Notes under the pieces: generated by a model | What the model was told of the DNA's origin: nothing | The model's input: the letters and a program-made list of their open reading frames with translations, nothing else | Databases searched by the model: none | Shown here: piece by piece, positions 12,001 through 54,353 of the stretch | How the letters are laid out: the number at the start of each line of letters is the position of its first letter | How positions within the stretch are numbered: the first letter of the stretch is position 1 | From: an uncultured Rickettsiales bacterium | GTDB lineage: Bacteria; Pseudomonadota; Alphaproteobacteria; Rickettsiales; 21-14-0-20-44-7 | Assembly: GCA_964545245.1 (NCBI GenBank) | Contig: CAZJFC010000004.1 | Coordinates: 1-56,720, forward strand | Direction: 5' to 3' | Length of the DNA: 56,720 nt | Translations under genes and position numbers: made by a program

Positions 12001-15000
12001 GCCGGAATCAACAACCGCGTTGGTGAGGACAATTGCGCCGCCGTTGGTTTCATCAGTGTCGGAGTTGAAGATTATATCGCCGCCGGAGCCGGTAATGTTG
12101 TGGTTAACCAATACATCACCCGCCGCCGCGAGGGTAATTTCCCCACCATTTGTTGCAGTCAATAAACCGCCGGTGGTTATTGTGCTATCCGCACCAGTGG
12201 TAGTAATAAAAATATTGTCGGCAGTCATTTTCCTCAGCACGATGCTGTCTTCAGCAGTCAGGTTGATAGTTCCCAACTCGCCATAAGTTGCATGACCTTG
12301 CCATGTGTTGGTAAGGTTAATGGTTTTCGCGGTAGCATTCACTGAACCACCCACCGGGCCAATAGAATTAGCGTTATTATAGGTTCTGCTTACCGCCCCT
12401 ATCTTTAGCGTACCGCCAGCGTTGATAGTATAGGTTTCCCCGGCCCAATATACACCCAAAGAGCCGAAAGTAATATCAGTCAAACTACTGATGGAGCCTT
12501 TCCCCACTACAGAATAACCAAAGTTGAAGGACGCATCATCCAGCCCGACTATATCACCATATAAATAGCTGCTGCTACCACTAGTACTGAGCGGGTCATA
12601 CCATGTAACATCACCAAATACGTTATGCCCCCCATCCCTATGATCTAAATTAATTTTACCCCATCCGTTCTGGATATTGGCAACTTCCGGGGTACTGATT
12701 TGTATGGCTGCACCGGCATCCCTATTTATATATATGTGACGGTTATTGCTATAAGTCCTGAGTGTCAGCTCCCCGCCTGTGCCGAAGAGCTTGCCGTTGA
12801 TTTCAAGATCGTCGGCGGTGAGGGTAAGGTTCTGGTTATTCCCGACCGAAATATCATCATTGATATTGATGAATCTTTCTGCCCCGCTGCTGGTCAGGGT
12901 AAAATCACCATCCACATCTATCGCGCTGGCGATGGTGATATCATCACCGCTCAAATATGTAAGGTTGCTTCCCCACGACGCAAGGTTGGAGGTAAGCGCC
13001 CCGGCTTTCGACGAACCGATAATCAAATTACCGGTAGTGATGTTACCAATAAAATCGTTAGCAATATCAAGATCACCGCCGCCATTAATGCCAATCGTCC
13101 TGCCATCCGTGCGCGTGCGGATGGTGACCGAACCTTCGTCACTGGTCTGGATAACCGTACCGGCAATCGAATAATCATCCATGTTCAGGATAATATTATT
13201 CGCCTTCGTCACATCGCCTATTGTGATACCATTCCCGCTGGTACCGGTATAAATATCATAGCTATCCGCACCTTCACCCCTGGTTCCGGTAATTTCGATT
13301 ATACTGCCATCATCTACCAGTATAGAAGCGCCATTGCGAATCTCGACGCCATTATTATTGTCCGCACCTGTTCCTCCATAACCGGTGATCCTGATATCAC
13401 CACCGTCAGTGGATTTTATTACAGCATTAGTGTTTATGCGTACACCACCCCCACTACCTTCTTCAGATTCCAGCCCGCCGGTTCCGATAATGGTTATATC
13501 GCCCGCCTCACTTTCAACCTTACTGCCTGTGGTTATCAAAGTTCCGTAATTAGAAATGCCCTTACCATCTCCGCCCTCGCCGGTAAGCTTGATTTCACCC
13601 GTACCGGTGGTTTTTATCGTTCCGCCGTTCTCAACGGTAATGCCATATCCGTTCTTGCTGCCACCGGCAGTACCCTCAATTTCTATATTTCCGCCGGTCT
13701 GGATTAATGCATTGCTATGTACAAGCTGGACACCGTGGTTATATATATTAGTCACCTCCCTGTCCTCAATCGCGCCACCGTTGCCTGACAAATTAATATT
13801 ACCGCTGGTACTCTTAATATGACCTGCAGCAATACGAATACCTGTATTGCCGTTGCCTGCCTCGACACCACCCGTTCCGGTTACTTCAATCTTGCCGCTG
13901 TCGCTTTCAATCTTGCCGCTGTTGGTAAGGAAAACACCATAATTATTCGCACCGGAACCGCTGCTACCCTCACCGTCTATGGTAATTGTGCCGGTGCCGG
14001 TAGCTTTTACCGTAGAGCCGGCCATATAAACAGCCCATCCGTTTGTCTCCCCACCGCTGGTTCCGGCGATTTCGATATTGCCCCCGGTCTGGACAAGGGA
14101 GCCGGCATTGAGGTAAACACCATAATTGTCTGAAGCAGCAGCATCGCTGCCGCCGTAGCCTTTCAGCACTATCTTACCTGTATTGCTGGTAATTTTGGCG
14201 GCGCTGCCGCTGAGGAAAATACCGTAATTCGTGCCGCCCGCGCCGGAACCGCCTGTACCGGTTATTTCTACCTTACCGCTGGCGCTTTCGATTACGCCGC
14301 TGTTATTAAGATGTACGCCATAATTACCAGCCCCTGCACCGTTGCTTCCTTCGCCCGTAATTTTAATTTCGCCGGTTCCTGTTGTCTTGACAGTGCCGCC
14401 GCTTATGTACACGCCGTATCCATTTGCATTGCCGACACCCTTGCCTTCGATATCTATATTACCACCTGTCTGGATCAATGAATTGGTATTGAGGAAAAAA
14501 CCATAGTTATCTGAAGCAGTAGCCTTGTTACCAGCGTCACCTTTGAGTATTATCGCACCTGTATTGCTGGTGATTTTGTTGATGCCGATACTGGATAGAT
14601 GAATACCATACTTACCTCCAGCCCCGCCACCAGCCAAACCGGTAACTTCAATTTTACCGCTGTCACTTTCAATACTGCTGTCATCGGTAAGGGAAACCCC
14701 TGTTCCATTAACGCTTCCACCTTCACCGAATATCCTGATCTCGCCAGCGCCAGTCGCCCTTATAACCCCGCCTGTAAGCTGCAAGCCCCTGCCATGCGGG
14801 CCACTATATCCCCAAACCTCAATATCGCCTCCTGTTTCAACAAGAGAACCGGTGTCAAGGTCGATAGCACGGTTGCCGGAGCTGTTTGAATAGCTGCCGC
14901 CATAACCCACCAGCTTGATATTACCGCTGTTGCTGATAACCTTATTTGTTCCGGAACTATTAAAGTAGATACCCTTATTATTAGCACCTGAACCGTCACC

Positions 15001-18000
15001 ACCCATTCCGGTAATTTCAATCTGGCCACTGCCGCTTTCGACTTCACTGCTGCCGGTTAGGTAAACACCGTAATTTGTGCTACCAGTTCCGTTACCGCCA
15101 CCGGTGCCGGTCAGTTTTATTGCGCCGCTACCATCCGCTTTTATCTTGGCTCCACCAAGATTTATTCCTCGGCTAGTAGTGCTACCGCCCCCGGTACCTT
15201 CGATTTCAATATCGCCGCTGGTCTGGATTGATGAGCCAGTACTAAGATGAACACCGTAGTTATTGGAGCCAACCGCATTCTGCCCGCCGATACCGCTAAG
15301 GGTGATTTTGCCGCTGGTGCTGGTAATTTTGTTCGTGCCGGAGTTAGAAAGATAAATACCGTAGTTGGTGCCACCCGCGCCGCTGCCGCCGGTGCCAATC
15401 ACCTCAATCTTGCCGCTGTCGCTTTCTATATTTCCAGTGCTAAGGATTACAACACCGTGATTTTCTGCGTCAGATCCGCTACCAGCTATGCCTGTAATTT
15501 TAATTTCGCCGCTTCCAGTAGCCTTAACCACCCCTGCACTGATAAGGACACCGTTTCCCTTGCTTCCGCCTCCGGTACCTTCAATCTCTATATCACCGCC
15601 GGTCTGAACAAGAGAATTACTTCCGTGCAGATAAACTCCTCGATTATCTGCGCTGCCCGTATTCTGCCCGCCGGTACCTTTAAGGATTATGGCTCCCGTG
15701 TTACTGGTAATTTTGTTGGTGCCGGTACTGGCGAGGTATATACCGTAATTGTAGCCGCCAATGCCGCCGCCGCCAATACCCTTTACCTCAATCTTGCCGC
15801 TATCGCTTTGAATGTGGCCACTGTTCTGAATAAGAACACCGTAATTACTGTTAACATCCCCATTTCCGCCTTTACCGGAGATATGGATTTTCCCCCCTCC
15901 ACTGGCTTTAACGGCAGCCCCTTCTATACGGACACCCTGGCTATACGACCCGCCACCTTCGCCTTCAATTTCTATGTCACCACCCGTTTCAACCAATGAG
16001 CCAGTATAAAGATAAACACCATGATTGCCAGAACCAACCGTGTTGCTGCCGCCGTAGCCTTTAAGGGTTATAGCACCTGTATTGCTGGTAATGGTATTAG
16101 TACCAGAGTTAACAAGGAAAATACCGGTATTACTACCGCCGGCATTACTACCGCCTGTACCTGTAATTTCAATCTTACCGCTATCGCTTTCGATTTTTCC
16201 GGTATTGGTGAGAACGATACCATGATTATTCACACCCGTGCCAGCGCCGCCGGTACCGGTGACTTTTATCTCGCCAGTGCCGGTAGTTTTTATAATCCCA
16301 CTATTGCTGACACCATATCCTTTACTAGCGCCGCCACCATAACCTTCAATTTCGATGTTGCCACCGGTACCGATCGATGCACTGCCAAGCCTTACACCAT
16401 AATTGTCATCTCCTGAAGTAGCTGCAACAGTTCCTTTTAGCTTTATATTACCGCTATTGCTGGTAACCTTGCTGCTTTGGTCGACAAGAACACCTGTATT
16501 TAAGCCTGCTATACCATTACCTTCAATATCACCCGTATCGCTGCTGATCTCAGCGCCGTTGGTAATTATAAGCCCGCGGCTAGACGCACTTTCACCCGTC
16601 AGTTTTATGCTGCCTGCGCCACTAGCTTTTACTAAAGTGCCATAAAGATATAAACCATATGCATTTGTCCCGCCGCCACCTGTACCGCTCATTTCAATAT
16701 TGCCGCCGCTTTCAACCAGCACTCCGGTACCCAGGATTATTCCATAATTCTTTGTTCCACCTGCGGCAACCCCACTCCCCGTTAACTTGATTGCACCGCT
16801 GGTACTGGTAATCTTGGCATTACTGCCGTTATTAATATAAATACCATAGTTATTGCCGCCGTCGCCGCTGCCGCCAGTTCCGGTTACATCGATCTTGCCA
16901 CTGTCGCTTTCAATCACGCCGCTGTTGGTAAGGTATACACCATGATTATTCGCGCCGGTTCCTGCGCCGCCGGTTCCCTCAACCGCAATGCTTGCGCCGC
17001 CCGTAGCCCTGATAGTCGCCCCATTGACATATACGCCATAAGCAGAGGCTGCTCCGTCATCAATCCCCGTGGTAGCGGGGTTGCCGTAACCAATGATCGA
17101 TATGTTATTGCCACTTTCTACAAGCGAACCGGTATTAAGAGCAACGCCATAATTATTCTTTGTGTACTTGTTAGCGCCGCCATAACCAGTGATGAATATC
17201 TGCCCGCTGGTACTGGTAATTTTATTTGCACCTGTACCGGATAAAAAAACGCCATAATTACCTTGGTTTCCGCCACTACCACCTTGACCGGTAATATTGA
17301 TAGTGCCGGAAGTGCTCTCTATGGATGAACCGTCAACTAAAACAACACCATAAAGCTGACCGCCCGAATTATAGCCGGCTCCGGAAGCTTTTATATTTCC
17401 GGTGCCGGATTTCAGTGTCGAACCGCTTAAATGCACCCCATGATTATAAGTGGTAGTACCCTTCGCGGCTTTGAATTCTGGGTCGTCATGTCCGCCGAGG
17501 ATAATGTTGCCGCCTGATGAGGTTATGTTGGTGTTGATGAGCGCGATTGCACCGCCACTAACCCCGTCAGTATCGGAGTTAAGAATAACATTCCCGCCGC
17601 CGGAGTTGATATCAAAATCAGTGAGTACAATATCTCTGCCTGCGTTGAAGCGGACATTGCCGCCCGTTGTGGTGCGGGTGGTATTGATGGTGCCTGCTGA
17701 TGAGGTGTAGATATCACCACTCGTTGCAGTGAGCGTGATGTTTCTGTCGGCCACCACATTGAGCGTGTCGCCGCCGAAGTCGAGGTTGATGTAATCATTC
17801 GCGATGAGGTTGATGTGGCTGCCGATGCTCATGGTTTCGAGTTGGGCTACGCTGAATGTGTTCTCCTCATCACCGGGAATTGAGCTGTGTGTAATTGTGA
17901 TATTTGCTGGGTCTAAGAGCCATGTACCTGTGCTACCCTTTGGCGCGGTAGTAAACACCAGCCCGCCAACGGTCAACTTATTTTTCCCAGAGGTCTCCAC

Positions 18001-19218: not shown

Positions 19219-19401
19219 CTTAACTTAAATTATCCGCCAGATACATTACAATTAGGTTAATTTATCATACAATTTGTGGATTTTTCTTAAACAGAACGAC
19301 TTATCCAAATCATTGTTTTATATGCTTTTTTAAAAATTGATGGCCTTTCTCGAACTTTTTGATTAAGGTCAGCCTGAAAATTTCTACTGGAAACATTAAT
19401 T

Positions 19402-23473: not shown

Positions 23474-23550
23474 TGGTGGGGCGAGAGGGATTTGAACCCC
23501 CGACCAAGGCGTTATGAGCGCCCTGCTACTAACCGCTGAGCTATCGCCCC
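23474..23550 (-). tRNA. tRNA with CAU anticodon (elongator tRNA-Met, or tRNA-Ile2 if lysidine-modified)
   Basis: The reverse complement is GGGGCGATAGCTCAGCGGTTAGTAGCAGGGCGCTCATAACGCCTTGGTCGGGGGTTCAAATCCCTCTCGCCCCACCA. It has a 7-bp acceptor stem, a CTCATAA anticodon loop, a TTCAAAT T-loop and an encoded CCA. The paired 1:72 position argues against an initiator tRNA. Confidence 0.9.
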
Positions 23551-23615
23551 AGCTAAAAGTCTGGATAGATAATAATCATGATTAAATCAACTCTTTTATG
23601 ACTTCTGAAGATCAA

Positions 23616-23927
23616 TCAGAGTACACCATCACTAATCATGACGTTAACACTTTGGCGGCAATAGTTATAACCGTTATACCAGGCAACTTCATATTGATAA
23701 TTGCCAACCATACTATCATCTCGTTTATAGCCATAAAAACTCTTATAAAAATGGTTCCCAAACACCGCATACCCGGTATGGCAACCGTCATCCCAACCTT
23801 GTTTATAGGCCGGATCTGCCCCCTCTGGAGAATTGGAACGTATCTTGTCGTACCACGGTATAGTTGGGTCAAAATATTTGCACCCGGAAATCGCTATAAC
23901 ACATAATACCAGAAGTGCTTTAAGCAT
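23616..23927 (-). CDS. Small lipoprotein, paralog 5 of 5
   Basis: Lipobox AISGC. Motifs are DPAYKQGWDDGCHTGY ... YEVAWYNGYNYC. Its start overlaps the stop of paralog 4 by 1 nt (TAATG). Confidence 0.7.
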   Translation of the reverse strand: MLKALLVLCVIAISGCKYFDPTIPWYDKIRSNSPEGADPAYKQGWDDGCHTGYAVFGNHFYKSFYGYKRDDSMVGNYQYEVAWYNGYNYCRQSVNVMISDGVL

Positions 23928-24244
23928 TAATCCATACCTCCGGTATAAAAATCATGAGTCTGCCATTTAGCGTTATAGTGCCTGCAATAATCAAAAGCCT
24001 CGTGCCACGCAGCATTATAATGTGGGTTGTGAAGCATTCTGTAATCCTGATAAAAATTATAGAACATTTTCTGTATAGCAGTGCCATATGCAGCAATCCC
24101 ACTTTGGCAACCATCTTCCCAGCCCCTTTTAAATTCAGGTGTTCCGGGGACATCAGTAGACATAAATAAAGGACTTGGACCAGACCACACACATGAGGTT
24201 CCTAGCAGAGCAACTATAATCAAAAATATATTCTTTATTACCAT
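23927..24244 (-). CDS. Small secreted protein or lipoprotein, paralog 4 of 5
   Basis: Signal peptide MVIKNIFLIIVALLGTSC with a non-canonical lipobox. Motifs are TPEFKRGWEDGCQSGI ... YNAAWHEAFDYC. Confidence 0.7.
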   Translation of the reverse strand: MVIKNIFLIIVALLGTSCVWSGPSPLFMSTDVPGTPEFKRGWEDGCQSGIAAYGTAIQKMFYNFYQDYRMLHNPHYNAAWHEAFDYCRHYNAKWQTHDFYTGGMD

Positions 24245-24759
24245 CCTCCCATCACTCCGCTAATACCGTCTTCATTACTTCCCATAAAGACGTTATCGCC
24301 ACCTCCCATTAAAGAATCAACCCCGCCACCGCCTAAAAAGCTATATCCCCGGCTTTCGGTTGATGCACCATAAAATGGAACTGAATTTGTCGTAGGATCA
24401 ACACAATCATCTCCCAGACCATCCAGAGAGCACCATGCTTCCATGTTACGGAATGAATAAGCGAATATATATGTCCGACAGAAATTCTCTGAATCCTTCC
24501 AAGCTTTGTAATATACCGGATTCGTAACCAATGAAGGGTTCTGGCGGAAAGCAAAAGTGGTACGGTAAAAATCGTTACCATGCGCCGCAATCCCTGTTTC
24601 ACATCCATCAAGCCATCCTTCCCTGAACTCTGCAGGGCCACCTTCCGGTGGCCCAGGCATAAATGGCGGTAAAGTTGGGCGAACGCCCCCAGTGCTACCC
24701 AACCCGCAGGAAACAAGTACCGAAAACACGCACATAAGTAACCACTTTCTCTTTCTCAT
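24238..24759 (-). CDS. Small lipoprotein, paralog 3 of 5, with a Gly-rich C-terminal extension
   Basis: I prefer the internal Met at 24759 (MRKRKWLLMCVFSVLVSCG, lipobox) over the track start at 24840. This gives an ATGA stop/start overlap with paralog 2. Motifs are PAEFREGWLDGCETGI ... YYKAWKDSENFC. Confidence 0.7.
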   Translation of the reverse strand: MRKRKWLLMCVFSVLVSCGLGSTGGVRPTLPPFMPGPPEGGPAEFREGWLDGCETGIAAHGNDFYRTTFAFRQNPSLVTNPVYYKAWKDSENFCRTYIFAYSFRNMEAWCSLDGLGDDCVDPTTNSVPFYGASTESRGYSFLGGGGVDSLMGGGDNVFMGSNEDGISGVMGGW

Positions 24760-25154
24760 AAAGGTGATTGCCCTGAATGGTTCCATTGCCTGTTGTAAAC
24801 GAAATACCACATGTAACAATAGTTCCAGGCATCCTTCCAAATTTGGTTATACATTACATTATTTGTGTAGCGTGGGTCCACATGAACACCACCTTGCTGG
24901 GTTCTGATAAAACTGTTACTGGCATAGGCAGATAATGCCGACTTACAGCCATCAGTATAACCCTGACGATATTCTGGTGGCCCGTAATCAACTTCAGTGT
25001 CAAGCAAGAGCGGTTTCGGGTTGTTGATTGGATCAACGCCACAACTAGCAAGCAACAGAACTGCAACCGCTACTACGACTGAATTAAGAGTATGCAGCAG
25101 AACTGCCTTATTCCGGCGCCCTATCCAACTCAAACTTGCAATAAAAATACCCAT
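24756..25154 (-). CDS. Small lipoprotein, paralog 2 of 5
   Basis: Lipobox LLLASC, then PPEYRQGYTDGCKSAL ... YNQIWKDAWNYC. Its 5' end overlaps the upstream paralog by 47 nt, so the start is uncertain. Confidence 0.65.
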   Translation of the reverse strand: MGIFIASLSWIGRRNKAVLLHTLNSVVVAVAVLLLASCGVDPINNPKPLLLDTEVDYGPPEYRQGYTDGCKSALSAYASNSFIRTQQGGVHVDPRYTNNVMYNQIWKDAWNYCYMWYFVYNRQWNHSGQSPL

Positions 25155-25419
25155 CTTTCCACGCTTTATAGTAAACAGAATCGTTTAATGCCTTATCTAC
25201 ATCATAATAAACTTCATTGTACATCAAGTTATAAAATCCTCCCCCAGAGGCCGTAGAGGCCGTTTTACACCCGTCAATTATCCCCTGCTGATAGTTGGGG
25301 GGACCATCAGGAGGAAAATTTGTAGCAAACATTGGGCCAGGAAACATGCCAACCGGACCGCAAGCCGCCATAGCCAATATTAGCCCCAATAGTGCACATC
25401 TAGCCATTGAATCCATCAT
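25108..25419 (-). CDS. Small lipoprotein, paralog 1 of 5 (unrecognised family with conserved Cys residues)
   Basis: Signal peptide with lipobox LAMAAC, then the shared motifs PPNYQQGIIDGCKTAS ... YYKAWKDGYFYC. Confidence 0.7.
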   Translation of the reverse strand: MMDSMARCALLGLILAMAACGPVGMFPGPMFATNFPPDGPPNYQQGIIDGCKTASTASGGGFYNLMYNEVYYDVDKALNDSVYYKAWKDGYFYCKFELDRAPE

Positions 25420-25470
25420 ACCTTATGAATATTGCAGTTTTGTGATATATAGATGCAATTTGATGATTAT

Positions 25471-26077
25471 CTAAGAAGAACATGAAACTTCTATATGTCT
25501 TGCCCACTCTGGGGGATCATTAGAATAACCATCAAATTCCTCTTGTTCTTCCGTTGGTATTCTCAATATTTTCAACAACTTATCGATCTCAGAATAATCC
25601 CTTTCATCTTCTGCCTTGCGTATAGCTTGTTCCGCAAGGTAATTACGGAGAATATATTTAGGATTAGACTTCAGCATTAACTCACGGTTTGGAAGGGTTG
25701 CCCTTTCTTTATAAAGCCTAAACCACGGCTCATAACTTTCAGTATCATCAAACTTATGGCTTAGTTCTTCACCTTTCGAAAATCTACGAAAAAAATTTGT
25801 ATAATCCACATTATTTATTTCCATTAAATCAAGCAAACTTTTTACCAGATGTATATCGTCCGGATGCGTATCTTCTAACCCCAGTTTTGCACGCATCAGC
25901 TCTAAATAATGCTCAGCAAGCACAGGCTGATATTTTTCAAGAATTTTAGCGACCTGCTCCAGAGGCAATAATGGCTCAAATGCCTGGGCCAATAGGCGAC
26001 GGAGCAACTTCACTAAAAAAGTTTTTCCCTAAACTGTAAAATCTACTTGCATATGGAAGATTGGCGACATCAAGCAT
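25471..26077 (-). pseudogene. selO: selO (YdiU/UPF0061 protein adenylyltransferase) remnant with an internal deletion of the catalytic core
   Basis: The 180-codon C-terminal part (...NPKYILRNYLAEQAIRKAE... ending HIEVSCSS) looks like the SelO C-terminus. In another frame, 26077-25976 encodes MLDVANLPYASRFYSLGKNFFSEVAPSPIGPGI*, which looks like the SelO N-terminus. About 270 codons between the two parts are missing and the parts are out of frame. Confidence 0.7.
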
Positions 26078-26094
26078 TTTTCTTAGTCTGCTTA

Positions 26095-27024
26095 TCATCC
26101 ACTCACTTCTAATGCTTTTATAATCGCAGGCGAGATAATCAAAGTAATAAGCGCAATCAACATTAAGGGTATAGTGTAAACAGCAATCTTGGCTGGCAAT
26201 TTACCAGCTTTTTCTTCTGCAAGCATCATTCTCGTCTGCCGGTAATCATCAGAAAGAACACGCAAAGTATCCACAAGGCTTGTACCAAATTTTTCTGATT
26301 GTAGTAGCGCAGCAACTAATGATTTAAACGCTAACAAGTCGGTCCGCTTACCTAAATTAAGGAGCGCCTTTTCCCGGTCATTTAGCATCGTCAATTCCAG
26401 ACGGGTTTTATTAAGCTCCTGCGTAATCTCAGGATGGCTATATTTTAACTCCTTGCAAACACGTGCCAAAGAGACATCAAGCGCCAAGCCAGATTCGACA
26501 CAAACTAGCAATAAATCCAGTGAATCAGGAAAAGAGCGCAGTAGAATTTTTTTCCTGTTTTCAATTGCACCTTGTATCCATAAGTGCGCACCAAATGAAA
26601 CCATCGCCGCTAGAAAAACTCCATTGGCTAAGATTACCCAAAACATCGTCCCTTCATGGGATTGCGCTACAAGATATATTAGAAAAAATATCGCAATTCC
26701 TATAATCCATCCAAAAGTAGAAAAGAATATATAATAACTTACAGCATCTGGAGACGCGGCTCCCGCCTGATATAGATGCAATTCTATACTTTCCCTGTCA
26801 TCACTGGCATTACGAAACGGAACCGTAAGACCTTCAAGCGCAACAGCCAAGGAAGAACGTTCTTGCTGATAATCCTGCTGTATCTCAATAAAACCTTCAT
26901 CTGTATCAGTTAAGCTTTGCACGCGCTTTTTTCTTAACTTATCCTCCCCCATCATCGATTTAGCTACTCTCAAGGTTAGCGTAAAAACGACTACAAACAC
27001 CAGTATAGCAATAACAATATTCAT
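26095..27024 (-). CDS. tadC: Tad pilus inner-membrane platform protein TadC (T2SS F-domain family)
   Basis: 309 aa and polytopic, with T2SSF-like helices. It lies last in the cpa/tad operon order and overlaps tadB by 1 nt. Confidence 0.8.
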   Translation of the reverse strand: MNIVIAILVFVVVFTLTLRVAKSMMGEDKLRKKRVQSLTDTDEGFIEIQQDYQQERSSLAVALEGLTVPFRNASDDRESIELHLYQAGAASPDAVSYYIFFSTFGWIIGIAIFFLIYLVAQSHEGTMFWVILANGVFLAAMVSFGAHLWIQGAIENRKKILLRSFPDSLDLLLVCVESGLALDVSLARVCKELKYSHPEITQELNKTRLELTMLNDREKALLNLGKRTDLLAFKSLVAALLQSEKFGTSLVDTLRVLSDDYRQTRMMLAEEKAGKLPAKIAVYTIPLMLIALITLIISPAIIKALEVSG

Positions 27025-27986
27025 CAGATGTCCAAATCAGTAAGTTTTTTTGTTATATATATTGAAGCTACAATCATAATCAAGGCAACAGTAAGACATA
27101 TATTCCCCGCTGTAGTCTCAAACAACGGATCAAGATATTCTTTTGAAGAAAATCTTACAAATGTCATCTGAAGCAAAGGAATAGCTGCAAAAATTTTTGC
27201 CGTTATCCGCCCTTCAGCAGTCAATGCATTGATCTTTAATTTTAGCTGTTTACGCTTACGAATTATCGTTGAAAGATTTGTAAGAACTTCGGCAAGATTT
27301 CCTCCAGTTTCTTGTTGTACGGATAAAATAACAACAAAGAAATTAACATCCATCAGCCCTATCCTGTCAGCCATTTTTCTTAATGCTTCAGGCATTGGCC
27401 GTCCATAGGATACTTCGTTAATCACTCTTTGAAACTCAGTACTAATAGGCGGTTCAGCATTCTGTGCTATAAGGCGCATCGATGAAATAAGCGGGTGTCC
27501 TGATTTTACACTCCTAACCATCATATCAATTGCATCTGGAAAATGATTAAGAAAGTAATCATTTCTTTTTTCCAGTTTTCGATTCAGCCTAGTGCCATTA
27601 TAATAGAGGATTGCAACCAATCCTATACATACCGCGTATAGTGGTGATTTCAGAAAATAAAATGCCAAAAAACTAACAACAATCCCCACCAGTAACAAAT
27701 AAAATAAGTGAGCACTAAAACTTGTAACATCTCCTGCTTGCTGGAGTTTTCGGTATATGTTACCAAAAAAAGGTACCCCCACTATTTTCTCAGCGAAGAC
27801 CTCTTCCCTTTTAGCAGCCAGCAAATACGATTCACTGTTCTCATCAGAAAAATCTCCCCGTGTAATATTCTCAAGGGATTTTTTTTGATACCTTGACGAT
27901 TTATCGGACAATAACCTTGACAGCAGAAGAAACACCACAACAAACGCAGCAAGAGTAATAACAAATAACAGGACCTTTTGATTCAT
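27024..27986 (-). CDS. tadB: Tad pilus inner-membrane platform protein TadB
   Basis: 320 aa membrane protein paralogous to TadC, located immediately downstream of the ATPase gene. Confidence 0.8.
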   Translation of the reverse strand: MNQKVLLFVITLAAFVVVFLLLSRLLSDKSSRYQKKSLENITRGDFSDENSESYLLAAKREEVFAEKIVGVPFFGNIYRKLQQAGDVTSFSAHLFYLLLVGIVVSFLAFYFLKSPLYAVCIGLVAILYYNGTRLNRKLEKRNDYFLNHFPDAIDMMVRSVKSGHPLISSMRLIAQNAEPPISTEFQRVINEVSYGRPMPEALRKMADRIGLMDVNFFVVILSVQQETGGNLAEVLTNLSTIIRKRKQLKLKINALTAEGRITAKIFAAIPLLQMTFVRFSSKEYLDPLFETTAGNICLTVALIMIVASIYITKKLTDLDI

Positions 27987-49982: not shown

Positions 49983-50207
49983 TCATGAGCATGTATTGCA
50001 AATGCCGAAAATATTCACTTCGTGCTCGGCTTTTTTGAAGCCTTTGGGTAATTTAACATCTACCCCGCCACAGTCGATATCATACACTTTGTTACAACTA
50101 TTACATTTGAAATGATGATGATGGTGCTTGTCCTTAAGGCAAAAGCGCAATACATCACCCGGCAGTTTAACCTCTTCAAGTTTATCATCGTCCCTTAAAC
50201 GCTTAAG
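49983..50207 (-). pseudogene. Fur-family regulator, 3' fragment only (74 codons, no start codon, N-terminal DNA-binding half missing)
   Basis: The reverse frame reads LKRLRDDDKLEEVKLPGDVLRFCLKDKHHHHHFKCNSCNKVYDIDCGGVDVKLPKGFKKAEHEVNIFGICNTCS*. This shows the His cluster and the two CxxC pairs of the Fur/Zur/PerR dimerisation domain. The frame is closed by a TAG at 50210-50208, inside the cas9 stump. Confidence 0.75.
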
Positions 50208-51546
50208 CTATTTCACAAGCTTCATCATACCGTGCGCCATTCCTCATATACGGAATGATATTACCAATAGCTTTCAATGAAAGACGGGTGAATTTATCAA
50301 AGCTTATCCCCAGTACTGCATCAATAATTTCCTGCTTTATTCCCGCTTCTGCCAGTTTGGATTTTATATCATCATCATTTTTCTGCAAAGTGAGTTGGGA
50401 AGTAATAATATCCAGCTTCCTATGCTGTTGCTCAAGGCTGTGCCACTCAATATCACCAAGCTTATCAGTAACAGCTTTTTTTAGGGTTTGATAACCTTTC
50501 AGTTCAATATATTTGCCCTTTTCTGGGTCTTTATCTTTTTTGTACGAATAAACCAGCCCCGGTGCCTTGAACTTTTCATCATTTCCAAGCGCAAGCCAAT
50601 TTCTTAACTGGGAGAATTTTATATCTTTCTTTTTGTGCGCTTCATTAAAAACAAGCTCCCTTTCTTCTTCATCCAACCCCCTTTCCTTACCGAACTTATC
50701 AACTATGCGCAGGTTATTTATTTTGGTTAATAATACAAAAACCTCGGATGAATAGGAATGTTTTGCCGCGCGTTTTTCGTTTTGCTCAAATTCGCAAAAA
50801 CCAACCATTTTATCCACAGAACGGATGGGAATCTGCCTGAAGGCATAGTGTTTGAATTCGTTTTTCAGGCTATCCGAAGCTTGTTGGTTGCCGAATTTAC
50901 GTTGTTCCTCAAAAATTATATCCACTTCCCTTTCCAGCATATCACGGGAAATGCTGTTTATATAACTACCAGCTTTGTTGCGCTTGTTATCTGAAAAACG
51001 GGGGTGCCTGAACAGCATTTCGCCTGCTGTCCGGTATACAACCCCATTATCGCCCATTTCCAGCAATGACTCGTTTGTCTCAATCCCACTTAGTAGCTTC
51101 CCTTCGGTTTTATTGGCGCGTAACTTTTCAGTTTCCGCTTTGCTATTGCTCCGGAACCCACGCCTTTTTGCTATATGCGTAAGAACCCTTGCAAATTCTT
51201 TACCGCTCAACTTGCGCTGCAACGCTTCATAACGCAATTCCCATGGTGACAGCACCTCATCACCGGTTATATACAAATTATCTAATTCCCCTTCTGTGAT
51301 AACACCATGTCCTACAAAAAGTTGGCGAATTTTACCAAGGCGTTGTGCCTTCCTTCTAATTAACCGCCTGACAAGCCTTTTGGTACGCCGTGGCGCGGCA
51401 AGCGATTCCCCTGTTTTTGGCTCTTCCGCTTTTGTGAAACATCTGACGCCAGAGCCTACAATTTGTGAATTTGCGTTATCAATGACCGACCAGCCTAAAG
51501 AGGCTATGCCAATATCCAGTCCAAGAATTTTCTGCGCTTTTGCCAT
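50203..51546 (-). pseudogene. cas9: Type II-C-like Cas9, N-terminal 447 codons only (RuvC-I, bridge helix, REC lobe); HNH, RuvC-II/III and PAM-interacting domains absent
   Basis: MAKAQKILGLDIGIASLGWSVID (RuvC-I), PKTGESLAAPRRTKRLVRRLIRRKAQRLGKIRQLF (Arg-rich bridge helix), ending ...SLKAIGNIIPYMRNGARYDEACEIA*. Neisseria-type Cas9 continues at that point (RYDEACAEIYG...). Confidence 0.85.
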
Positions 51547-51574
51547 AACCTTAACTTAAAATTGAGAATCATGG

Positions 51575-51602
51575 TTGACAAGAAAAAAATATAAAAGATA
51601 AT
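51575..51602 (+). promoter_or_regulatory. Sigma70-like promoter for the tracrRNA-like gene
   Basis: TTGACA (51575-51580), a 16-nt spacer, then GATAAT (51597-51602). The predicted start is about 51609. Confidence 0.55.
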
Positions 51603-51608
51603 AGGCTA

Positions 51609-51700
51609 GTTGTAGCTTAAAGCTGTGGGAGCCGTTGCTATAATAAGAGTTTATCTCGTAAGGTATGCCCCTCGCTGCAAAGTGTAGGGGTATCCTTTTT
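51609..51700 (+). ncRNA. tracrRNA-like RNA gene (36-nt anti-repeat, nexus-like segment and intrinsic terminator)
   Basis: GTTGTAGCTTAAAGCTGTGGGAGCCGTTGCTATAAT is followed by AAGAGTTTATCTCGTAAGGTATG. A CCCCTCGC-TGCAAA-GTG(T)AGGGG hairpin and TATCCTTTTT come next. CCGTTGCTATAATAAG closely matches the N. meningitidis tracrRNA anti-repeat/nexus junction CCGUUGCUACAAUAAGG. The gene is divergent from the cas9 stump. The 5' end is inferred from the promoter. Confidence 0.65.
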
Positions 51701-51722
51701 GAACTATGCTCCGTATCAATCC

Positions 51723-52466
51723 CTATAGTTCGCCCGCTAGTTTTTTGATGATAGCGGCTTCTGAAAGTTCTTTTATAGTTTTTTCCAGCAGTTCCGTCCC
51801 ATCAAATTCTACCGCGACGGATGCAAGGGCTTGGCTTAGCTCAAAATAAAAACCTTTATCACCCGTAAGCCTGTGCCAAAATTCTTGGCCAATATACACG
51901 GGATAATGATATTTATTTTCTATCGCAAGGAAATGCCCACTTAATTCATGGCGTTCCCCATACAATACCCCAACTATTAAGTCATCAATGTTGACTTTGA
52001 TGTTATTGGTACGTGCTAGGTTCTTTAGTTTTTTAAAATGGTTATCTATAACTTCAACACCACCAGAGTTAATATTGTTGGGACCTGCTTTTAGCTGGCA
52101 ATATTTTTTCCTGCCATCAATTTGGTCAATAAATTCTATATCCATACCAGCGCCAATGCTGCCCATGGCTTCATTGCCGATAGCACCTTTAAGGTACGGG
52201 ATAAATTTTTGTAAGTTTGTGCCTAGGGAAGTAGTGATAGATGTACCAAGTACACGCGGGTAAATAAGTGCCTTTGCAATGCCTTCCGGGTCGTTTTTTC
52301 CCGTCAAGAACCGGGCGAGGTAATTTACAAGGAATGGGTTGATGTTAAATTCATCTGGGTTAGAAAGCTTGGCCGTATTTTTAATATGGTTTACCGCAAT
52401 CGTTTCACGCAACCATGTCTTGGCTGCATCTAAAATAATTTTTTTATCAATTTTATTCTTCGTCAT
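51723..52466 (-). CDS. Putative type II restriction endonuclease (partner of the adjacent C5-methyltransferase)
   Basis: 247 aa, divergent from the MTase gene across 87 bp. The candidate PD-(D/E)XK-like core is GAGMDIEFIDQIDGRKKYCQLKAGPN. I cannot assign a family or specificity from memory. Confidence 0.6.
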   Translation of the reverse strand: MTKNKIDKKIILDAAKTWLRETIAVNHIKNTAKLSNPDEFNINPFLVNYLARFLTGKNDPEGIAKALIYPRVLGTSITTSLGTNLQKFIPYLKGAIGNEAMGSIGAGMDIEFIDQIDGRKKYCQLKAGPNNINSGGVEVIDNHFKKLKNLARTNNIKVNIDDLIVGVLYGERHELSGHFLAIENKYHYPVYIGQEFWHRLTGDKGFYFELSQALASVAVEFDGTELLEKTIKELSEAAIIKKLAGEL

Positions 52467-52553
52467 TGGATAAACCTAATTGCATTTCTATAGTAACCAT
52501 TGTAAAGTTTGATAATGTTTTTAGCCTTTAATCAAACAAAATTCAAGTAGGTT

Positions 52554-53861
52554 ATGGAAAAACTCTATACTGTTGCACAGGTCGCTGACCTCTTATCCGT
52601 ATCAAAGCAAACAGTAAGGAACTGGGATGTTACCGGCAAATTAAAAGCAGTCCGGCATCCAGTAAATGGTTATAGGCTCTATTCCGAAAAAGATGTTTTT
52701 GCATTAGACAAAGAAGGTGTGTTGACTGGCCGCGATTTGCCTGCGCAGGAAAAACCAAGCCATGATTACCGCGTTATAGAATTGTTTGCGGGCGCAGGTG
52801 GCCTTGCCCTCGGCTTAGAAAAAGCTGGCCTGTCATCATTAATGCTCAATGAAATTGACCGCCATGCTTGCAAAACGTTACGTTTCAACCGCCCACATTG
52901 GAATGTGGTTGAAGGTGATGTGCAGCAAATTGATTTTACCCCTTACCGGGGCAAAGCTGAAATTGTTGCAGGTGGTTTCCCTTGCCAATCATTTAGCTAT
53001 GCCGGGAAAAAATTAGGTTTGGAAGATGCGCGTGGTACAATGTTTTATGAATTTGCCCGTGCCGTCAAAGAAATCCAACCCCTAATTTGCATTGGTGAAA
53101 ATGTACGCGGCCTGCTCAAGCATGATAATGGCCGGACTATTGAAGGTATGGTATCTATCCTTGATGAGTTGGGTTACCGGGTATTACCGCCCCGTGTCCT
53201 CAAAGCAATTTTCCACCGTGTGCCGCAAAAAAGGGAACGCCTGCTGATTGTAGGCATCAGGAAAGATGCAGCTATAAATTATGAATTCCCACGGGCGCAC
53301 AAAGAACATTACACACTGGCTGATGCGCTTAAAGCTGGCAGGCTATTCCCGCAAGACGTTCCTGCGTCTGCTGGCATGGCTTATGCAAAACGCAAAGCAG
53401 AAATACTAAAACACGTTCCCCAAGGTGGTTACTGGCGTGATTTGCCACTAAACCTGCAAAAAGAATATATGCTAAAAAGCTTTTATTTAGGTGGCGGTAA
53501 AACAGGAATGGCTAGGCGTATGAGTTGGGATGAGGCTTGCCTGACATTGACTTGTAGCCCAGCACAAAAACAAACAGAGCGTTGCCACCCCGATGAAACC
53601 CGCCCATTTACAGTAAAGGAATATGCGCGTATCCAAACTTTCCCGGATGATTGGCAATTTGCTGGCCCTATAACTTCACAGTACAAACAGATTGGCAATG
53701 CTGTACCAGTCAATATGGCAGAGGAAATAGGCCATACCCTTGTAAAAGCCCTTAATGATTATTTTGCCAATAAACCCCTTACTGGCAGCAAAAGTGGTTA
53801 CAAGGTTGCGCCCCGCAAATATAAAGAACCACGCTTTGAGCGCATCAAAGCAAGCGCCTAG
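52554..53861 (+). CDS. DNA (cytosine-5)-methyltransferase with an N-terminal MerR/excisionase-type HTH domain
   Basis: HTH YTVAQVADLLSVSKQTVRNWDVTGKLKAVRHPVNGYRLYSEKDV, motif I ELFAGAGGLALG, motif IV GGFPCQSFS, motif VI ENVRGLL and motif X QIGNAVPV. Confidence 0.92.
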   Translation: MEKLYTVAQVADLLSVSKQTVRNWDVTGKLKAVRHPVNGYRLYSEKDVFALDKEGVLTGRDLPAQEKPSHDYRVIELFAGAGGLALGLEKAGLSSLMLNEIDRHACKTLRFNRPHWNVVEGDVQQIDFTPYRGKAEIVAGGFPCQSFSYAGKKLGLEDARGTMFYEFARAVKEIQPLICIGENVRGLLKHDNGRTIEGMVSILDELGYRVLPPRVLKAIFHRVPQKRERLLIVGIRKDAAINYEFPRAHKEHYTLADALKAGRLFPQDVPASAGMAYAKRKAEILKHVPQGGYWRDLPLNLQKEYMLKSFYLGGGKTGMARRMSWDEACLTLTCSPAQKQTERCHPDETRPFTVKEYARIQTFPDDWQFAGPITSQYKQIGNAVPVNMAEEIGHTLVKALNDYFANKPLTGSKSGYKVAPRKYKEPRFERIKASA

Positions 53862-53873
53862 TGGTAAGGATGC

Positions 53874-54353
53874 ATGGCAGACAATGCATTCAAAAAAGCT
53901 GGATATAAAACAACAAAAGAGCGTAGCCGCATTATGGCTACCATACGTTCGTCCAACACTAAGCCTGAATTCATTGTAAGGCGGTTGCTACACCAGCATG
54001 GTTACCGCTACCGGCTGCATTATAAGAAAGCACCGGGAAGCCCAGACCTTGCTTTAACTAAGCAGAAAATTGCTATTTTTGTGAATGGCTGTTTTTGGCA
54101 TTACCACGGCTGCCATATTTCCCATGTCCCCAAAAGCAATTCCGCTTTCTGGCAGGCAAAAATTAAACGTAACCTTGACCGCGATAAAAGAAGTATTGAT
54201 GCATTGTTTGCTATGGGCTGGCGTGTATTGATTATTTGGGAATGCTCTTTGATGACCAATTCAAAATTGGATGAGCAAGACCTGCTGTCTAAAATTCAGG
54301 GTTTTATAAATAGCTCCAAACAGGGTGATGTAATCGGCGGTTCCAAGCCATAA
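53874..54353 (+). CDS. vsr: Very-short-patch repair endonuclease
   Basis: RSRIMATIRSSNTKPEFIVRRLLHQHGYRYRLH...PGSPDLALTKQKIAIFVNGCFWHYHGC. It lies directly after the C5-MTase gene. Confidence 0.9.
   Translation: MADNAFKKAGYKTTKERSRIMATIRSSNTKPEFIVRRLLHQHGYRYRLHYKKAPGSPDLALTKQKIAIFVNGCFWHYHGCHISHVPKSNSAFWQAKIKRNLDRDKRSIDALFAMGWRVLIIWECSLMTNSKLDEQDLLSKIQGFINSSKQGDVIGGSKP

What the first reader, a model, noticed from the sequence alone, without database searches (positions are those of the whole stretch)
50203..51700. Decayed type II-C CRISPR-Cas locus: a Cas9 N-terminal stump beside an apparently intact tracrRNA gene, with no cas1, cas2 or array
The 447-codon minus-strand ORF is clearly Cas9-like at its N-terminus. 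It has RuvC-I (KILGLDIGIASLGWSVID), an Arg-rich bridge helix (RRTKRLVRRLIRRKAQRL) and a REC-sized helical region. It stops at ...GARYDEACEIA*, the point where Neisseria-type II-C Cas9 continues into RuvC-II, HNH, RuvC-III and the PAM-interacting domain. None of those domains, and no cas1, cas2 or repeat-spacer array, is in the window.

Yet 62 nt upstream of the cas9 start, on the opposite strand, the guide-scaffold gene looks complete:
- A near-consensus promoter (TTGACA, 16 nt, GATAAT) would start transcription at about 51609.
- That position is the first base of a 36-nt element, GTTGTAGCTTAAAGCTGTGGGAGCCGTTGCTATAAT.
- The element is followed by AAGAGTTTATCTCGTAAGGTATG, an 8-bp hairpin and a T5 run ending at 51700.
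- CCGTTGCTATAATAAG is almost identical to the anti-repeat/nexus junction of the N. meningitidis tracrRNA.
- A 36-nt unit beginning GTTGTAGC and ending GCTAYAAT is the II-C repeat format.

So the scaffold gene (about 92 nt) looks complete while its nuclease is a stump. Either the decay is very recent, or the RNA is retained for another reason. It could serve a Cas9 and array elsewhere in the genome, or act as a regulatory small RNA. The 5' GUUGUAGC can also pair with GCUAUAAU within the same RNA, giving a self-folded repeat:anti-repeat mimic like natural single guides.
Basis: partly seen in the sequence, partly recalled or inferred. Interest (0 to 1): 0.8.

Follow-up and report, generated by a model that had tools for sequence, protein, structure and literature searches.

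The report
Deleted CRISPR-Cas9 locus, guide-scaffold gene intact
This is the leftover of a type II-C CRISPR-Cas9 immune locus: one deletion removed the back half of cas9, cas1, cas2 and the spacer array, and left the front 447 codons of cas9 and a complete tracrRNA gene, which is an ordinary kind of gene decay.

Summary

- **The ORF.** ORF 50203-51546(-) is the first 447 residues of a type II-C Cas9 (RuvC-I, bridge helix, REC lobe). Its relatives are overwhelmingly full-length Cas9 of about 1050 aa. It is not a stand-alone family.
- **The closest relative.** This is a 1052-aa Cas9, 67% identical, in a metagenome locus with the same layout: a divergent tracrRNA, then cas9, cas1, cas2 and an array of about 50 repeats.
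- **The tracrRNA.** Window 51609-51700(+) is a full-length tracrRNA. It is 89% identical to that relative's tracrRNA. Its anti-repeat pairs over all 36 nt with that relative's CRISPR repeat. A covariance model built from 46 other II-C loci finds it and nothing else in the window (59.7 bits, E 2.6e-9).
- **The breakpoint.** I mapped it to within 2 nt (50205-50207). There cas9 codon 447 abuts codon 46 of a 119-aa Fur-family gene, so both genes are truncated by one joint.
- **Timing.** No cas1, cas2, cas9 C-terminal half or array is in the window. The stump shows no excess amino-acid change, so the loss is recent.

This is a degraded CRISPR locus, a known phenomenon. Interest is low. Function of the leftover RNA is untested.

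The parts
51575..51602 (+). Sigma-70-type promoter of the tracrRNA gene (TTGACA, 16 nt, GATAAT). The predicted start is about 51609.
   Evidence: 11 of 12 consensus matches. The -35 TTGACA is conserved at the same place in the closest intact locus, L165.
51609..51644 (+). tracrRNA anti-repeat, 36 nt (GTTGTAGCTTAAAGCTGTGGGAGCCGTTGCTATAAT).
   Evidence: 32 of 36 nt are identical to the L165 anti-repeat. It pairs over its full length with the L165 crRNA repeat at -43.7 kcal/mol, against -13.6 +/- 3.1 for shuffles. It matches Rfam CRISPR-DR34 over positions 1-36, below threshold.
51645..51700 (+). tracrRNA 3' scaffold: AAG, a short nexus stem-loop (GAG/CUC), and a terminal hairpin with a U5 run.
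   Evidence: Model R2, built from 46 other loci, matches 51609-51704 over all 97 model positions (59.7 bits, E 2.6e-9). The structure is supported by covariation in those loci: 94.8% of cells paired, and 13 of 16 pairs with compensatory changes. Fold.
50206..51546 (-). cas9 5' fragment, codons 1-447: RuvC-I with the catalytic Asp, the Arg-rich bridge helix, and the REC lobe.
   Evidence: It is 67% identical to residues 2-451 of the intact 1052-aa P0043.
50203..50207 (-). Deletion joint. cas9 homology ends at GCT (Ala447, 50206-50208). Fur-family homology starts at CTT (50205-50207). The stump's TAA stop (50203-50205) is made from Fur-derived sequence read out of frame.
   Evidence: DNA alignment to L165, codon comparison with the Fur homologues L167 and L168, and three-frame translation.
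49983..50207 (-). 3' fragment of a Fur-family regulator gene: the last 74 of 119 codons plus the stop. The N-terminal 45 codons and the promoter are missing.
   Evidence: Pfam FUR profile positions 50-102. It is 82-88% identical over 100% of its length to 119-aa Fur-family proteins P0185-P0188.

Best explanation
The region is the relic of a type II-C CRISPR-Cas9 locus.

The ancestral layout was: tracrRNA (divergent), cas9, cas1, cas2, array, and further on a fur-family gene in the same orientation. A single deletion ran from cas9 codon 447 to fur codon 46. It removed RuvC-II, HNH, RuvC-III and the PAM-interacting domain, cas1, cas2, the array, and whatever lay between the array and fur.

The tracrRNA gene survived only because it lies upstream of cas9, outside the deleted segment.

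**Shown:** the identity of both gene fragments, the joint, the completeness of the tracrRNA, and the absence of the other parts.

**Inferred:**
- The tracrRNA is probably still transcribed, because its promoter and terminator are intact.
- The stump may still be translated.
- Without a crRNA partner, nuclease domains or a PAM-interacting domain, neither product can carry out interference. They are non-functional leftovers of a recent loss.
For: - **Truncation.** The ORF aligns only to residues 5-445 of Cas9 chains of about 1082 aa. Relatives in an exhaustive search are full-length.
- **Closest locus.** L165/L166 has the same divergent tracrRNA-cas9 layout plus cas1, cas2 and an array of about 50 repeats.
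- **Extent of homology.** DNA homology between the window and L165 runs from the tracrRNA terminator (51700) to 50206 and stops there.
- **Other side of the joint.** The sequence is the C-terminal 74 of 119 residues of a Fur-family protein, 88% identical to P0185. So two genes are truncated at one point with at most 2-4 nt of overlap.
- **Missing parts.** tblastn finds no cas1, cas2 or cas9 C-terminal half, and there is no repeat array.
- **tracrRNA.** It is complete and canonical.
- **Recency.** The stump shows no excess lineage-specific amino-acid change relative to its intact sister: 8 vs 12 departures from the outgroup consensus, and 1 vs 1 at strongly conserved columns. The tracrRNA is 89% identical to L165's, while only 130 of 447 cas9 codons are identical.
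- **Precedent.** Degraded type II loci are common (PMC6882279). An independent relic with the same anatomy exists in L003.
Against: - The joint rests on a single assembled contig. No second contig carries this protein, so read-level support is unknown.
- The window appears to be a whole contig (one search lists the longest contig carrying this protein as 56720 nt), so the rest of the genome was not seen.
- An intact 447-codon ORF, all invariant Cas9 N-terminal residues, a near-consensus promoter and an undamaged tracrRNA would also be expected if the pair were kept by selection.
- The ancestral arrangement, with fur downstream of the array, is inferred. It was not observed in any relative: in L167 and L168 the fur homologue has other neighbours.
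Confidence: 0.8

Rival explanations
1. Assembly chimera. The contig joins two unrelated molecules at about 50205, and no such deletion exists in any cell.
For: A chimeric join would also truncate a gene on each side at one point. Only one contig carries the stump. The left side is syntenic with one relative (L168), while the cas9-tracrRNA side resembles a different source (L165).
Against: Graph-based mis-joins need a shared k-mer of 20 nt or more. Here cas9 homology and Fur homology overlap by only 2-4 nt. G+C content is similar on both sides, 0.39-0.46. A comparable real relic exists in L003, where the stump is fused to its own array.
Confidence: 0.07
2. The stump and the tracrRNA are kept by selection as a working pair. 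The RuvC-I, bridge-helix and REC polypeptide would bind the tracrRNA and act as a regulator, or as a decoy for guide RNAs.
For: - The ORF, the conserved residues, the promoter and the RNA are all undamaged.
- The break lies in the REC to RuvC-II linker. Two other lineages carry Cas9 split into two ORFs at that linker. In the L001 and L171 lineage both halves are under purifying selection: 84 synonymous vs 51 non-synonymous codon changes in the N half, and 125 vs 79 in the C half.
- From my own knowledge of Cas9 structures, the REC lobe and bridge helix contact the repeat:anti-repeat duplex.
Against: - The stop codon comes from out-of-frame Fur sequence at a joint that also destroys a neighbouring gene. 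That is the signature of an accident.
- No second instance of this stump exists.
- Among 80 species-representative II-C loci, none has a Cas9 ending near residue 450.
- There is no crRNA partner for the anti-repeat.
- The intactness is equally well explained by recency.
Confidence: 0.06
3. The tracrRNA still serves a second Cas9 and array elsewhere in the same genome.
For: The rest of the genome is unseen. The RNA is complete and would pair with an L165-type repeat.
Against: In 65 or more of the 80 II-C loci examined, each cas9 has its own tracrRNA immediately upstream, so a second system would normally bring its own. No array with the predicted repeat core occurs in the metagenome or genome collections scanned; there were only single chance matches.
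Confidence: 0.05
4. The 36-nt element is a solitary CRISPR repeat left from the array, not a tracrRNA anti-repeat.
For: It has the II-C repeat format and gives a weak full-length match to Rfam CRISPR-DR34. It ends in TGCTATAAT, which resembles the promoters inside repeats that I recall from Neisseria II-C arrays (own knowledge).
Against: - It sits upstream of cas9, where L165 has its tracrRNA. The L165 array lies beyond cas2.
- It is followed by the conserved nexus and terminal hairpin that model R2 requires.
- Like the L165 anti-repeat, it departs from the complement of the L165 repeat across the internal loop, where it carries CCGTT.
Confidence: 0.02

Closest known systems
Type II-C CRISPR-Cas9 loci with the tracrRNA gene upstream of cas9 (one of the four anti-repeat positions described by Chylinski et al. 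2013, PMC3737331). The closest instance is the metagenomic locus L165/L166.
   Same: - The Cas9 N-terminal 447 aa are 67% identical to L165's Cas9.
- The tracrRNA is divergent, 62-64 nt from the cas9 start.
- The anti-repeat is 32 of 36 nt identical.
- The 3' scaffold and the -35 box are the same.
   Different: The window lacks cas9 codons 448 onward, cas1, cas2 and the array. The L165 nexus carries an extra hairpin of about 19 nt that the window and the family consensus lack.
Solved II-C Cas9 structures (PDB chains 9ar4_A, 8jtj_A, 8uza_A, 6jdq_A and others, 1082-1095 aa). From my own knowledge, the 6jdq group is N. meningitidis Cas9 and the 8jtj/8uza group is Geobacillus Cas9.
   Same: RuvC-I, the bridge helix and the REC lobe align over residues 5-445 at E 1e-78 to 1e-90.
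   Different: Nothing corresponds to RuvC-II, HNH, RuvC-III, WED or the PAM-interacting domain.
Degraded type II CRISPR-Cas loci, for example 8 of 21 systems in Mollicutes, including a locus with a predicted tracrRNA but no cas genes (PMC6882279).
   Same: Partial loss of a type II locus, with some components surviving.
   Different: Here the event is a single clean deletion mapped to within 2 nt, and it also truncates a neighbouring regulator gene. The surviving parts show no further decay.
Regulatory tracrRNA derivatives: the S. pyogenes long tracrRNA (natural single guide), the Francisella scaRNA:tracrRNA pair, and phage-encoded sgRNAs (bioRxiv 10.64898/2026.06.01.729453).
   Same: A tracrRNA-type scaffold that could exist without a normal crRNA partner.
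   Different: Those RNAs carry a short guide segment and need a full-length Cas9. This RNA is predicted to start at the first base of the anti-repeat, with no guide, and the only Cas9 in sight lacks every DNA-binding and cleavage domain beyond the REC lobe.
Engineered split Cas9, with the helical lobe and nuclease lobe expressed separately (own knowledge: Wright et al. 2015).
   Same: The break lies at the junction between the REC lobe and the rest of the nuclease lobe. Natural two-ORF Cas9 genes split at this linker were seen in L001, L171 and L004.
   Different: In the window the second half is absent, not separately encoded.

Membership tests
Cas9 (type II-C effector) | RuvC-I motif with catalytic Asp, Arg-rich bridge helix, REC lobe | tested here: met
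   Asp11, the conserved bridge-helix arginines (R53, R54, R57, R60, R61, R65, R69) and the REC lobe align with 10-25 Cas9 sequences. PDB alignment. Pfam Cas9_a.
Cas9 (type II-C effector) | RuvC-II, HNH, RuvC-III and PAM-interacting domains in the same polypeptide or an adjacent ORF | tested here: not met
   The ORF stops at residue 447. Downstream DNA is Fur-family sequence. tblastn with a Cas9 C-terminal half finds nothing in the window.
Type II-C CRISPR-Cas locus | cas1 and cas2 adaptation genes | tested here: not met
   tblastn with Cas1 and Cas2 from L001 gives only chance hits, with E above 0.09.
Type II-C CRISPR-Cas locus | Repeat-spacer array | tested here: not met
   There is no second copy of the 36-nt element or its complement at up to 10 mismatches, and no spaced repeats outside a giant repeat-protein gene.
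tracrRNA (II-C, upstream-of-cas9 class) | Anti-repeat complementary to the cognate CRISPR repeat | tested here: inconclusive
   The window's own array is gone. By proxy, the anti-repeat pairs over 36 nt with the repeat of the closest locus, L165 (-43.7 kcal/mol, with the same internal loop as L165's own pair).
tracrRNA (II-C, upstream-of-cas9 class) | Conserved 3' scaffold (AAG, nexus stem, terminal hairpin) recognised by a model built from other loci | tested here: met
   R2, built from 46 loci and excluding the window and L165, gives 59.7 bits, E 2.6e-9, over model positions 1-97. It is the only hit in 56.7 kb. Covariation control.
tracrRNA (II-C, upstream-of-cas9 class) | Position next to cas9 | tested here: met
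   It lies 62 nt from the cas9 start, divergent, as in L165, L004 and about 25 of the 80 loci where the hit is on the minus strand.
tracrRNA (II-C, upstream-of-cas9 class) | Own promoter and intrinsic terminator; transcribed as a small RNA | not testable with these tools
   A promoter consensus match and a hairpin with U5 are present. The simple terminator scan is negative. Expression needs RNA data.
Natural single-guide or Cas9-regulating RNAs (tracr-L, scaRNA, vsgRNA) | A short guide segment 5' of a repeat-like arm, with a matching target at a promoter | tested here: not met
   The predicted start (about 51609) is the first base of the anti-repeat, so no guide segment is available. The start site is predicted, not measured.

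The most novel reading that the evidence does not exclude
The REC to RuvC-II linker may be a naturally permissive split point of II-C Cas9. Two-ORF Cas9 genes are kept under purifying selection in other lineages.

On this reading, the window's 447-aa N-terminal polypeptide and its tracrRNA persist as a functional RNA-protein pair. It could be a guide-RNA sink, or a regulator acting on a Cas9 system elsewhere or on incoming elements. It would not be inert debris.
Probability: 0.06. Interest if true: 0.7.

Novelty: new member of a known kind. Interest (0 to 1): 0.25.

Why it matters
As it stands, this is a well-resolved example of how a CRISPR-Cas9 locus is lost. One deletion with almost no junction homology takes out the nuclease half of cas9, the adaptation genes, the array and half of a neighbouring regulator. 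The tracrRNA survives because of where it sits.

It adds a new, deep-branching II-C Cas9 and tracrRNA lineage: 67% identical to the nearest known Cas9 and 45-48% or less to all others found.

It would matter more only if the leftover RNA and stump turned out to be used.

The by-product may deserve more attention than the window's relic: natural two-ORF Cas9 genes split at the same linker and apparently kept by selection.

Tried and rejected
1. **A recurrent breakpoint hot-spot.** The word-indexed protein search returned several Cas9 N-terminal ORFs ending within about 20 residues of YDEAC (P0003, P0005/P0009, P0019, P0027). The exhaustive search showed this was ascertainment. That tool returned no protein longer than 757 aa, while most true relatives are full-length. 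P0019 is cut by a contig end. P0126 ends 31 nt from a contig end. Among 80 representative loci, none breaks near residue 450.

2. **cas9 continuing in another frame past the stop.** The tail AFKGR** resembles L001's EFKGRK**. I rejected this because the same DNA is 82-88% identical at the protein level to Fur-family genes right up to the joint.

3. **Rfam.** There is no tracrRNA-family hit at gathering or at E up to 10. Only a sub-threshold CRISPR-DR34 match appears.

4. **Looking for the same or a close locus.** The exact protein is not on record elsewhere. No close relative turns up in the species-representative genomes. gcvPB places the organism among poorly sampled Alphaproteobacteria, with at most 65% identity, too far for fine synteny.

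5. **Searching for the lost array's repeat.** The pattern CCCACAGYTTTNNGCTAYAA gave only single chance matches in metagenome contigs and genome contigs, and no arrays.

6. **Prophage or mobile-element origin of the flank.** PHROGs and Pfam give nothing diagnostic for ORFs in 54.5-56.7 kb.
Full report
**Observation**

The window holds a 447-codon ORF at 50203..51546 on the minus strand, ending ...GARYDEACEIA*.
- Against all PDB chains, it aligns to residues 5-445 of Cas9 proteins of 1082-1095 aa (best E 2.5e-90). Nothing aligns to their C-terminal 57%.
- Pfam sees only the Cas9 helical lobe. PADLOC Cas9 profiles are matched only in their N-terminal part.
- In alignments with 10 and 25 Cas9 sequences, the RuvC-I Asp (D11), the conserved bridge-helix arginines and the other conserved N-terminal positions are all present.

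The RNA gene lies 62 nt upstream, on the other strand.
- The promoter TTGACA-16-GATAAT at 51575-51602 matches 11 of 12 consensus positions.
- It precedes a 36-nt element at 51609-51644 that is unique in the window.
- The 94-nt stretch 51609-51702 folds at -34.4 kcal/mol (z = -3.7) into a short stem-loop and a long terminal hairpin, followed by U5 ending at 51700.
- Rfam has no significant match. Only CRISPR-DR34 appears, end to end but below threshold.

**Is the ORF a truncated Cas9 or a family of its own?**

The word-indexed protein search returned only fragments, several about 455 aa long. That briefly suggested a stand-alone family or a breakpoint hot-spot.

The exhaustive search of 1.84 billion representatives settles it. 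There are 4178 relatives, and most of the best 150 (about 110) are 1000-1200 aa. The short ones have scattered lengths typical of contig ends.

Among 80 species-representative II-C loci, tblastn with a full-length Cas9 finds an uninterrupted gene in all but three, and none of those three breaks near residue 450. So the ORF is a stump.

**The closest relative and the tracrRNA**

P0043 is 1052 aa and 67% identical over residues 2-446. It is encoded in two metagenome contigs, L165 and L166. That locus reads: integrase genes, a divergent small-RNA gene, cas9, cas1, cas2, and an array of about 50 repeats.
- The RNA gene sits 64 nt from the cas9 start on the opposite strand, exactly as in the window.
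- Its anti-repeat, GTTATAGTTTAAAACTGTGGGAACCGTTGCTATAAT, is 32 of 36 identical to the window's.
- Overall the two RNAs have 82 matches and 10 mismatches, plus an extra nexus hairpin of about 19 nt in L165. By contrast, only 130 of 447 cas9 codons are identical.
- The L165 repeat in crRNA sense is GTTATAGCTTCCGTTCCCACAGTTTTTGGCTATAAT. It pairs with the window's anti-repeat over all 36 nt, with the same internal loop as with L165's own anti-repeat: -43.7 vs -41.2 kcal/mol. Shuffles give -13.6 +/- 3.1, and repeats of three other II-C loci give -10.7 to -21.8.

I then tested family membership with covariance models.
- A model seeded with five such RNAs finds one strong hit just upstream of cas9, on either strand, in about 65 of 80 II-C loci.
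- A second model was built from 46 of those hits, without the window or L165. It hits the window only at 51609-51704, over the whole model: 59.7 bits, E 2.6e-9.
- In those 46 loci the nexus stem and terminal hairpin are 94.8% paired, with compensatory changes at 13 of 16 pairs. Slid controls are paired at 56% or less. One caveat applies: the alignment was fitted to the model.
- The family consensus has the short nexus seen in the window, so the window's RNA is canonical and L165 carries an insertion.

The tracrRNA gene is therefore complete.

**The breakpoint**

DNA homology to L165 runs from the tracrRNA terminator (51700) to GCT, Ala447 (50206-50208), and then stops. L165 continues GGA TAT AAC, while the window continues TAAGCGTTTAAGG.

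From CTT (50205-50207) onward, in another frame, the sequence encodes LKRLRDDDKLEEVKLPGDVLRFCLKDKHHHHHFKC...CS*.
- This matches Pfam FUR from profile position 50.
- It is 82-88% identical, over its full 74 residues, to residues 46-119 of 119-aa Fur-family proteins.

So cas9 loses its 3' 57% and the fur-family gene loses its first 45 codons and its promoter at the same point, with at most 2-4 nt of overlap. The stump's stop codon is Fur-derived sequence read out of frame.

Both fragments point the same way, as a simple deletion requires. No cas1, cas2, cas9 C-terminal half or array exists elsewhere in the window.

**Timing**

A relative-rate test compared the stump with its intact sister, using 24 outgroup Cas9 sequences. 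It shows no acceleration in the stump:
- 8 vs 12 lineage-specific departures from the outgroup consensus;
- 1 vs 1 at columns conserved in 90% or more of sequences.

The 1341-nt ORF has no stop or frameshift, and the tracrRNA has kept every helix. By my rough estimate, an unconstrained ORF of this length is unlikely to stay open beyond about 1-2% neutral divergence. Either the deletion is very recent or the parts are under selection. The accidental character of the joint favours recency.

**Mechanism, as far as supported**

Shown: the anatomy described above.

Inferred:
- The RNA is probably still made, because its promoter and terminator are intact.
- The stump may be translated.
- From general knowledge of Cas9 structure, the bridge helix and REC lobe contact the repeat:anti-repeat duplex. 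With no crRNA, no HNH or complete RuvC domain and no PAM-interacting domain, there can be no DNA targeting.

The relic sits beside an intact type II restriction-modification module: an EcoO109I-like endonuclease, an HTH-fused C5 methylase, and Vsr. That fits a defence-gene neighbourhood.

**Rivals**
- An assembly chimera would give the same two-sided truncation, but it needs a long shared k-mer that is not there. It cannot be excluded without reads.
- Continued use of the RNA by another Cas9 and array, or a function for the stump-RNA pair, cannot be excluded, because the rest of the genome is unseen.
- No array with the predicted repeat core exists in the collections scanned, and II-C cas9 genes normally bring their own tracrRNA.
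- The idea that the element is a solitary repeat is contradicted by its position, its scaffold and the model match.

**Comparison with what is known**
- Anti-repeats upstream of cas9 are one of the four known tracrRNA positions, and truncated Cas9 sequences were already set aside in the first survey (PMC3737331).
- Degraded type II systems are frequent. Examples are 8 of 21 systems in Mollicutes, including a locus with a predicted tracrRNA but no cas genes (PMC6882279).
- Regulatory tracrRNA derivatives and phage sgRNAs need a guide segment and a full Cas9. This RNA has neither.

The finding is a new instance of a known kind of decay, in a previously unsampled II-C lineage.

**Seen on the way**
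1. L003 holds an independent relic. A 456-aa Cas9 stump is fused directly to the last two repeats of its own array, with an intact tracrRNA upstream and no cas9 C-terminal half, cas1 or cas2.
2. In L001/L002 and in L171-L173, cas9 is split at the same linker into overlapping ORFs of 454/455 and 637 aa. These loci are 88% identical to each other and lie in different genomic contexts. Synonymous changes outnumber non-synonymous ones in both halves (84 vs 51 and 125 vs 79 codons), and L001 keeps cas1, cas2 and a 19-repeat array. L004 has an independent split (466 + 578 aa) beside an array of more than 50 repeats. These look like natural two-piece Cas9 genes or programmed frameshifts, and they deserve their own study.

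Noticed in passing
L001 8001-11229; L002 3702-6930; L171 936-4164; L172/L173 1920 onward: cas9 is split into two overlapping ORFs (454/455 aa and 637 aa, the second in the +1 frame) at the REC to RuvC-II linker. The split is shared by two lineages that are 88% identical and sit in different genomic contexts. Synonymous codon changes outnumber non-synonymous ones in both halves (84 vs 51 and 125 vs 79). cas1, cas2 and a 19-repeat array are intact in L001. This may be a natural two-piece Cas9 or a programmed frameshift.
   Followed up: partly
L004 8001-11164: An independent split of cas9 at the same linker (466 + 578 aa, the second ORF in the -1 frame), beside cas1, cas2 and an array of more than 50 repeats. 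The tracrRNA is divergent upstream (7859-7953, minus strand).
   Followed up: partly
L003 5237-6908: A second, unrelated Cas9 relic. An intact tracrRNA (5237-5356) precedes a 456-aa Cas9 stump (5436-6806), whose stop is followed at once by two CRISPR repeats with one 30-nt spacer (6807-6908). There is no cas9 C-terminal half, cas1 or cas2, so the deletion fused mid-cas9 to the array.
   Followed up: partly
window 51723-54353: An apparently intact type II restriction-modification module lies directly beside the tracrRNA. It comprises an EcoO109I-family endonuclease (51723-52466, minus strand), a C5 cytosine methylase with an N-terminal MerR/HTH domain (52554-53861), and a Vsr mismatch endonuclease (53874-54353). 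Homology to the L165 cas locus ends exactly at the tracrRNA terminator, so this module is a separate acquisition.
   Followed up: partly
window 1-19224, minus strand: One open reading frame of at least 6408 codons runs off the left end of the window. It is full of imperfect repeats with a period of about 100 nt (families of 21, 6 and 4 copies). It is presumably a giant repetitive surface protein.
   Followed up: no
L165 5805-9818 and 19865-20197: The closest intact II-C locus sits next to two integrase genes, an AlpA-like gene and a further integrase fragment. This suggests that this Cas9 lineage travels on an integrative island.
   Followed up: no
window 51636-51644: The 3' end of the anti-repeat reads TGCTATAAT, a perfect extended -10 box. 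From my own knowledge, Neisseria-type II-C repeats carry such internal promoters. A short transcript starting near 51651 and covering only the nexus and terminator is conceivable.
   Followed up: no
window 23477-27722 vs L168 11669-20355: A tRNA (anticodon CAU) and a block of pilus/secretion-type genes are syntenic with an NCBI MAG contig (GCA_043757405.1). In that contig the intact fur homologue lies about 1.3 kb from the tRNA. In the window the fur fragment is 26 kb away and inverted, so the genomes are rearranged relative to each other.
   Followed up: partly
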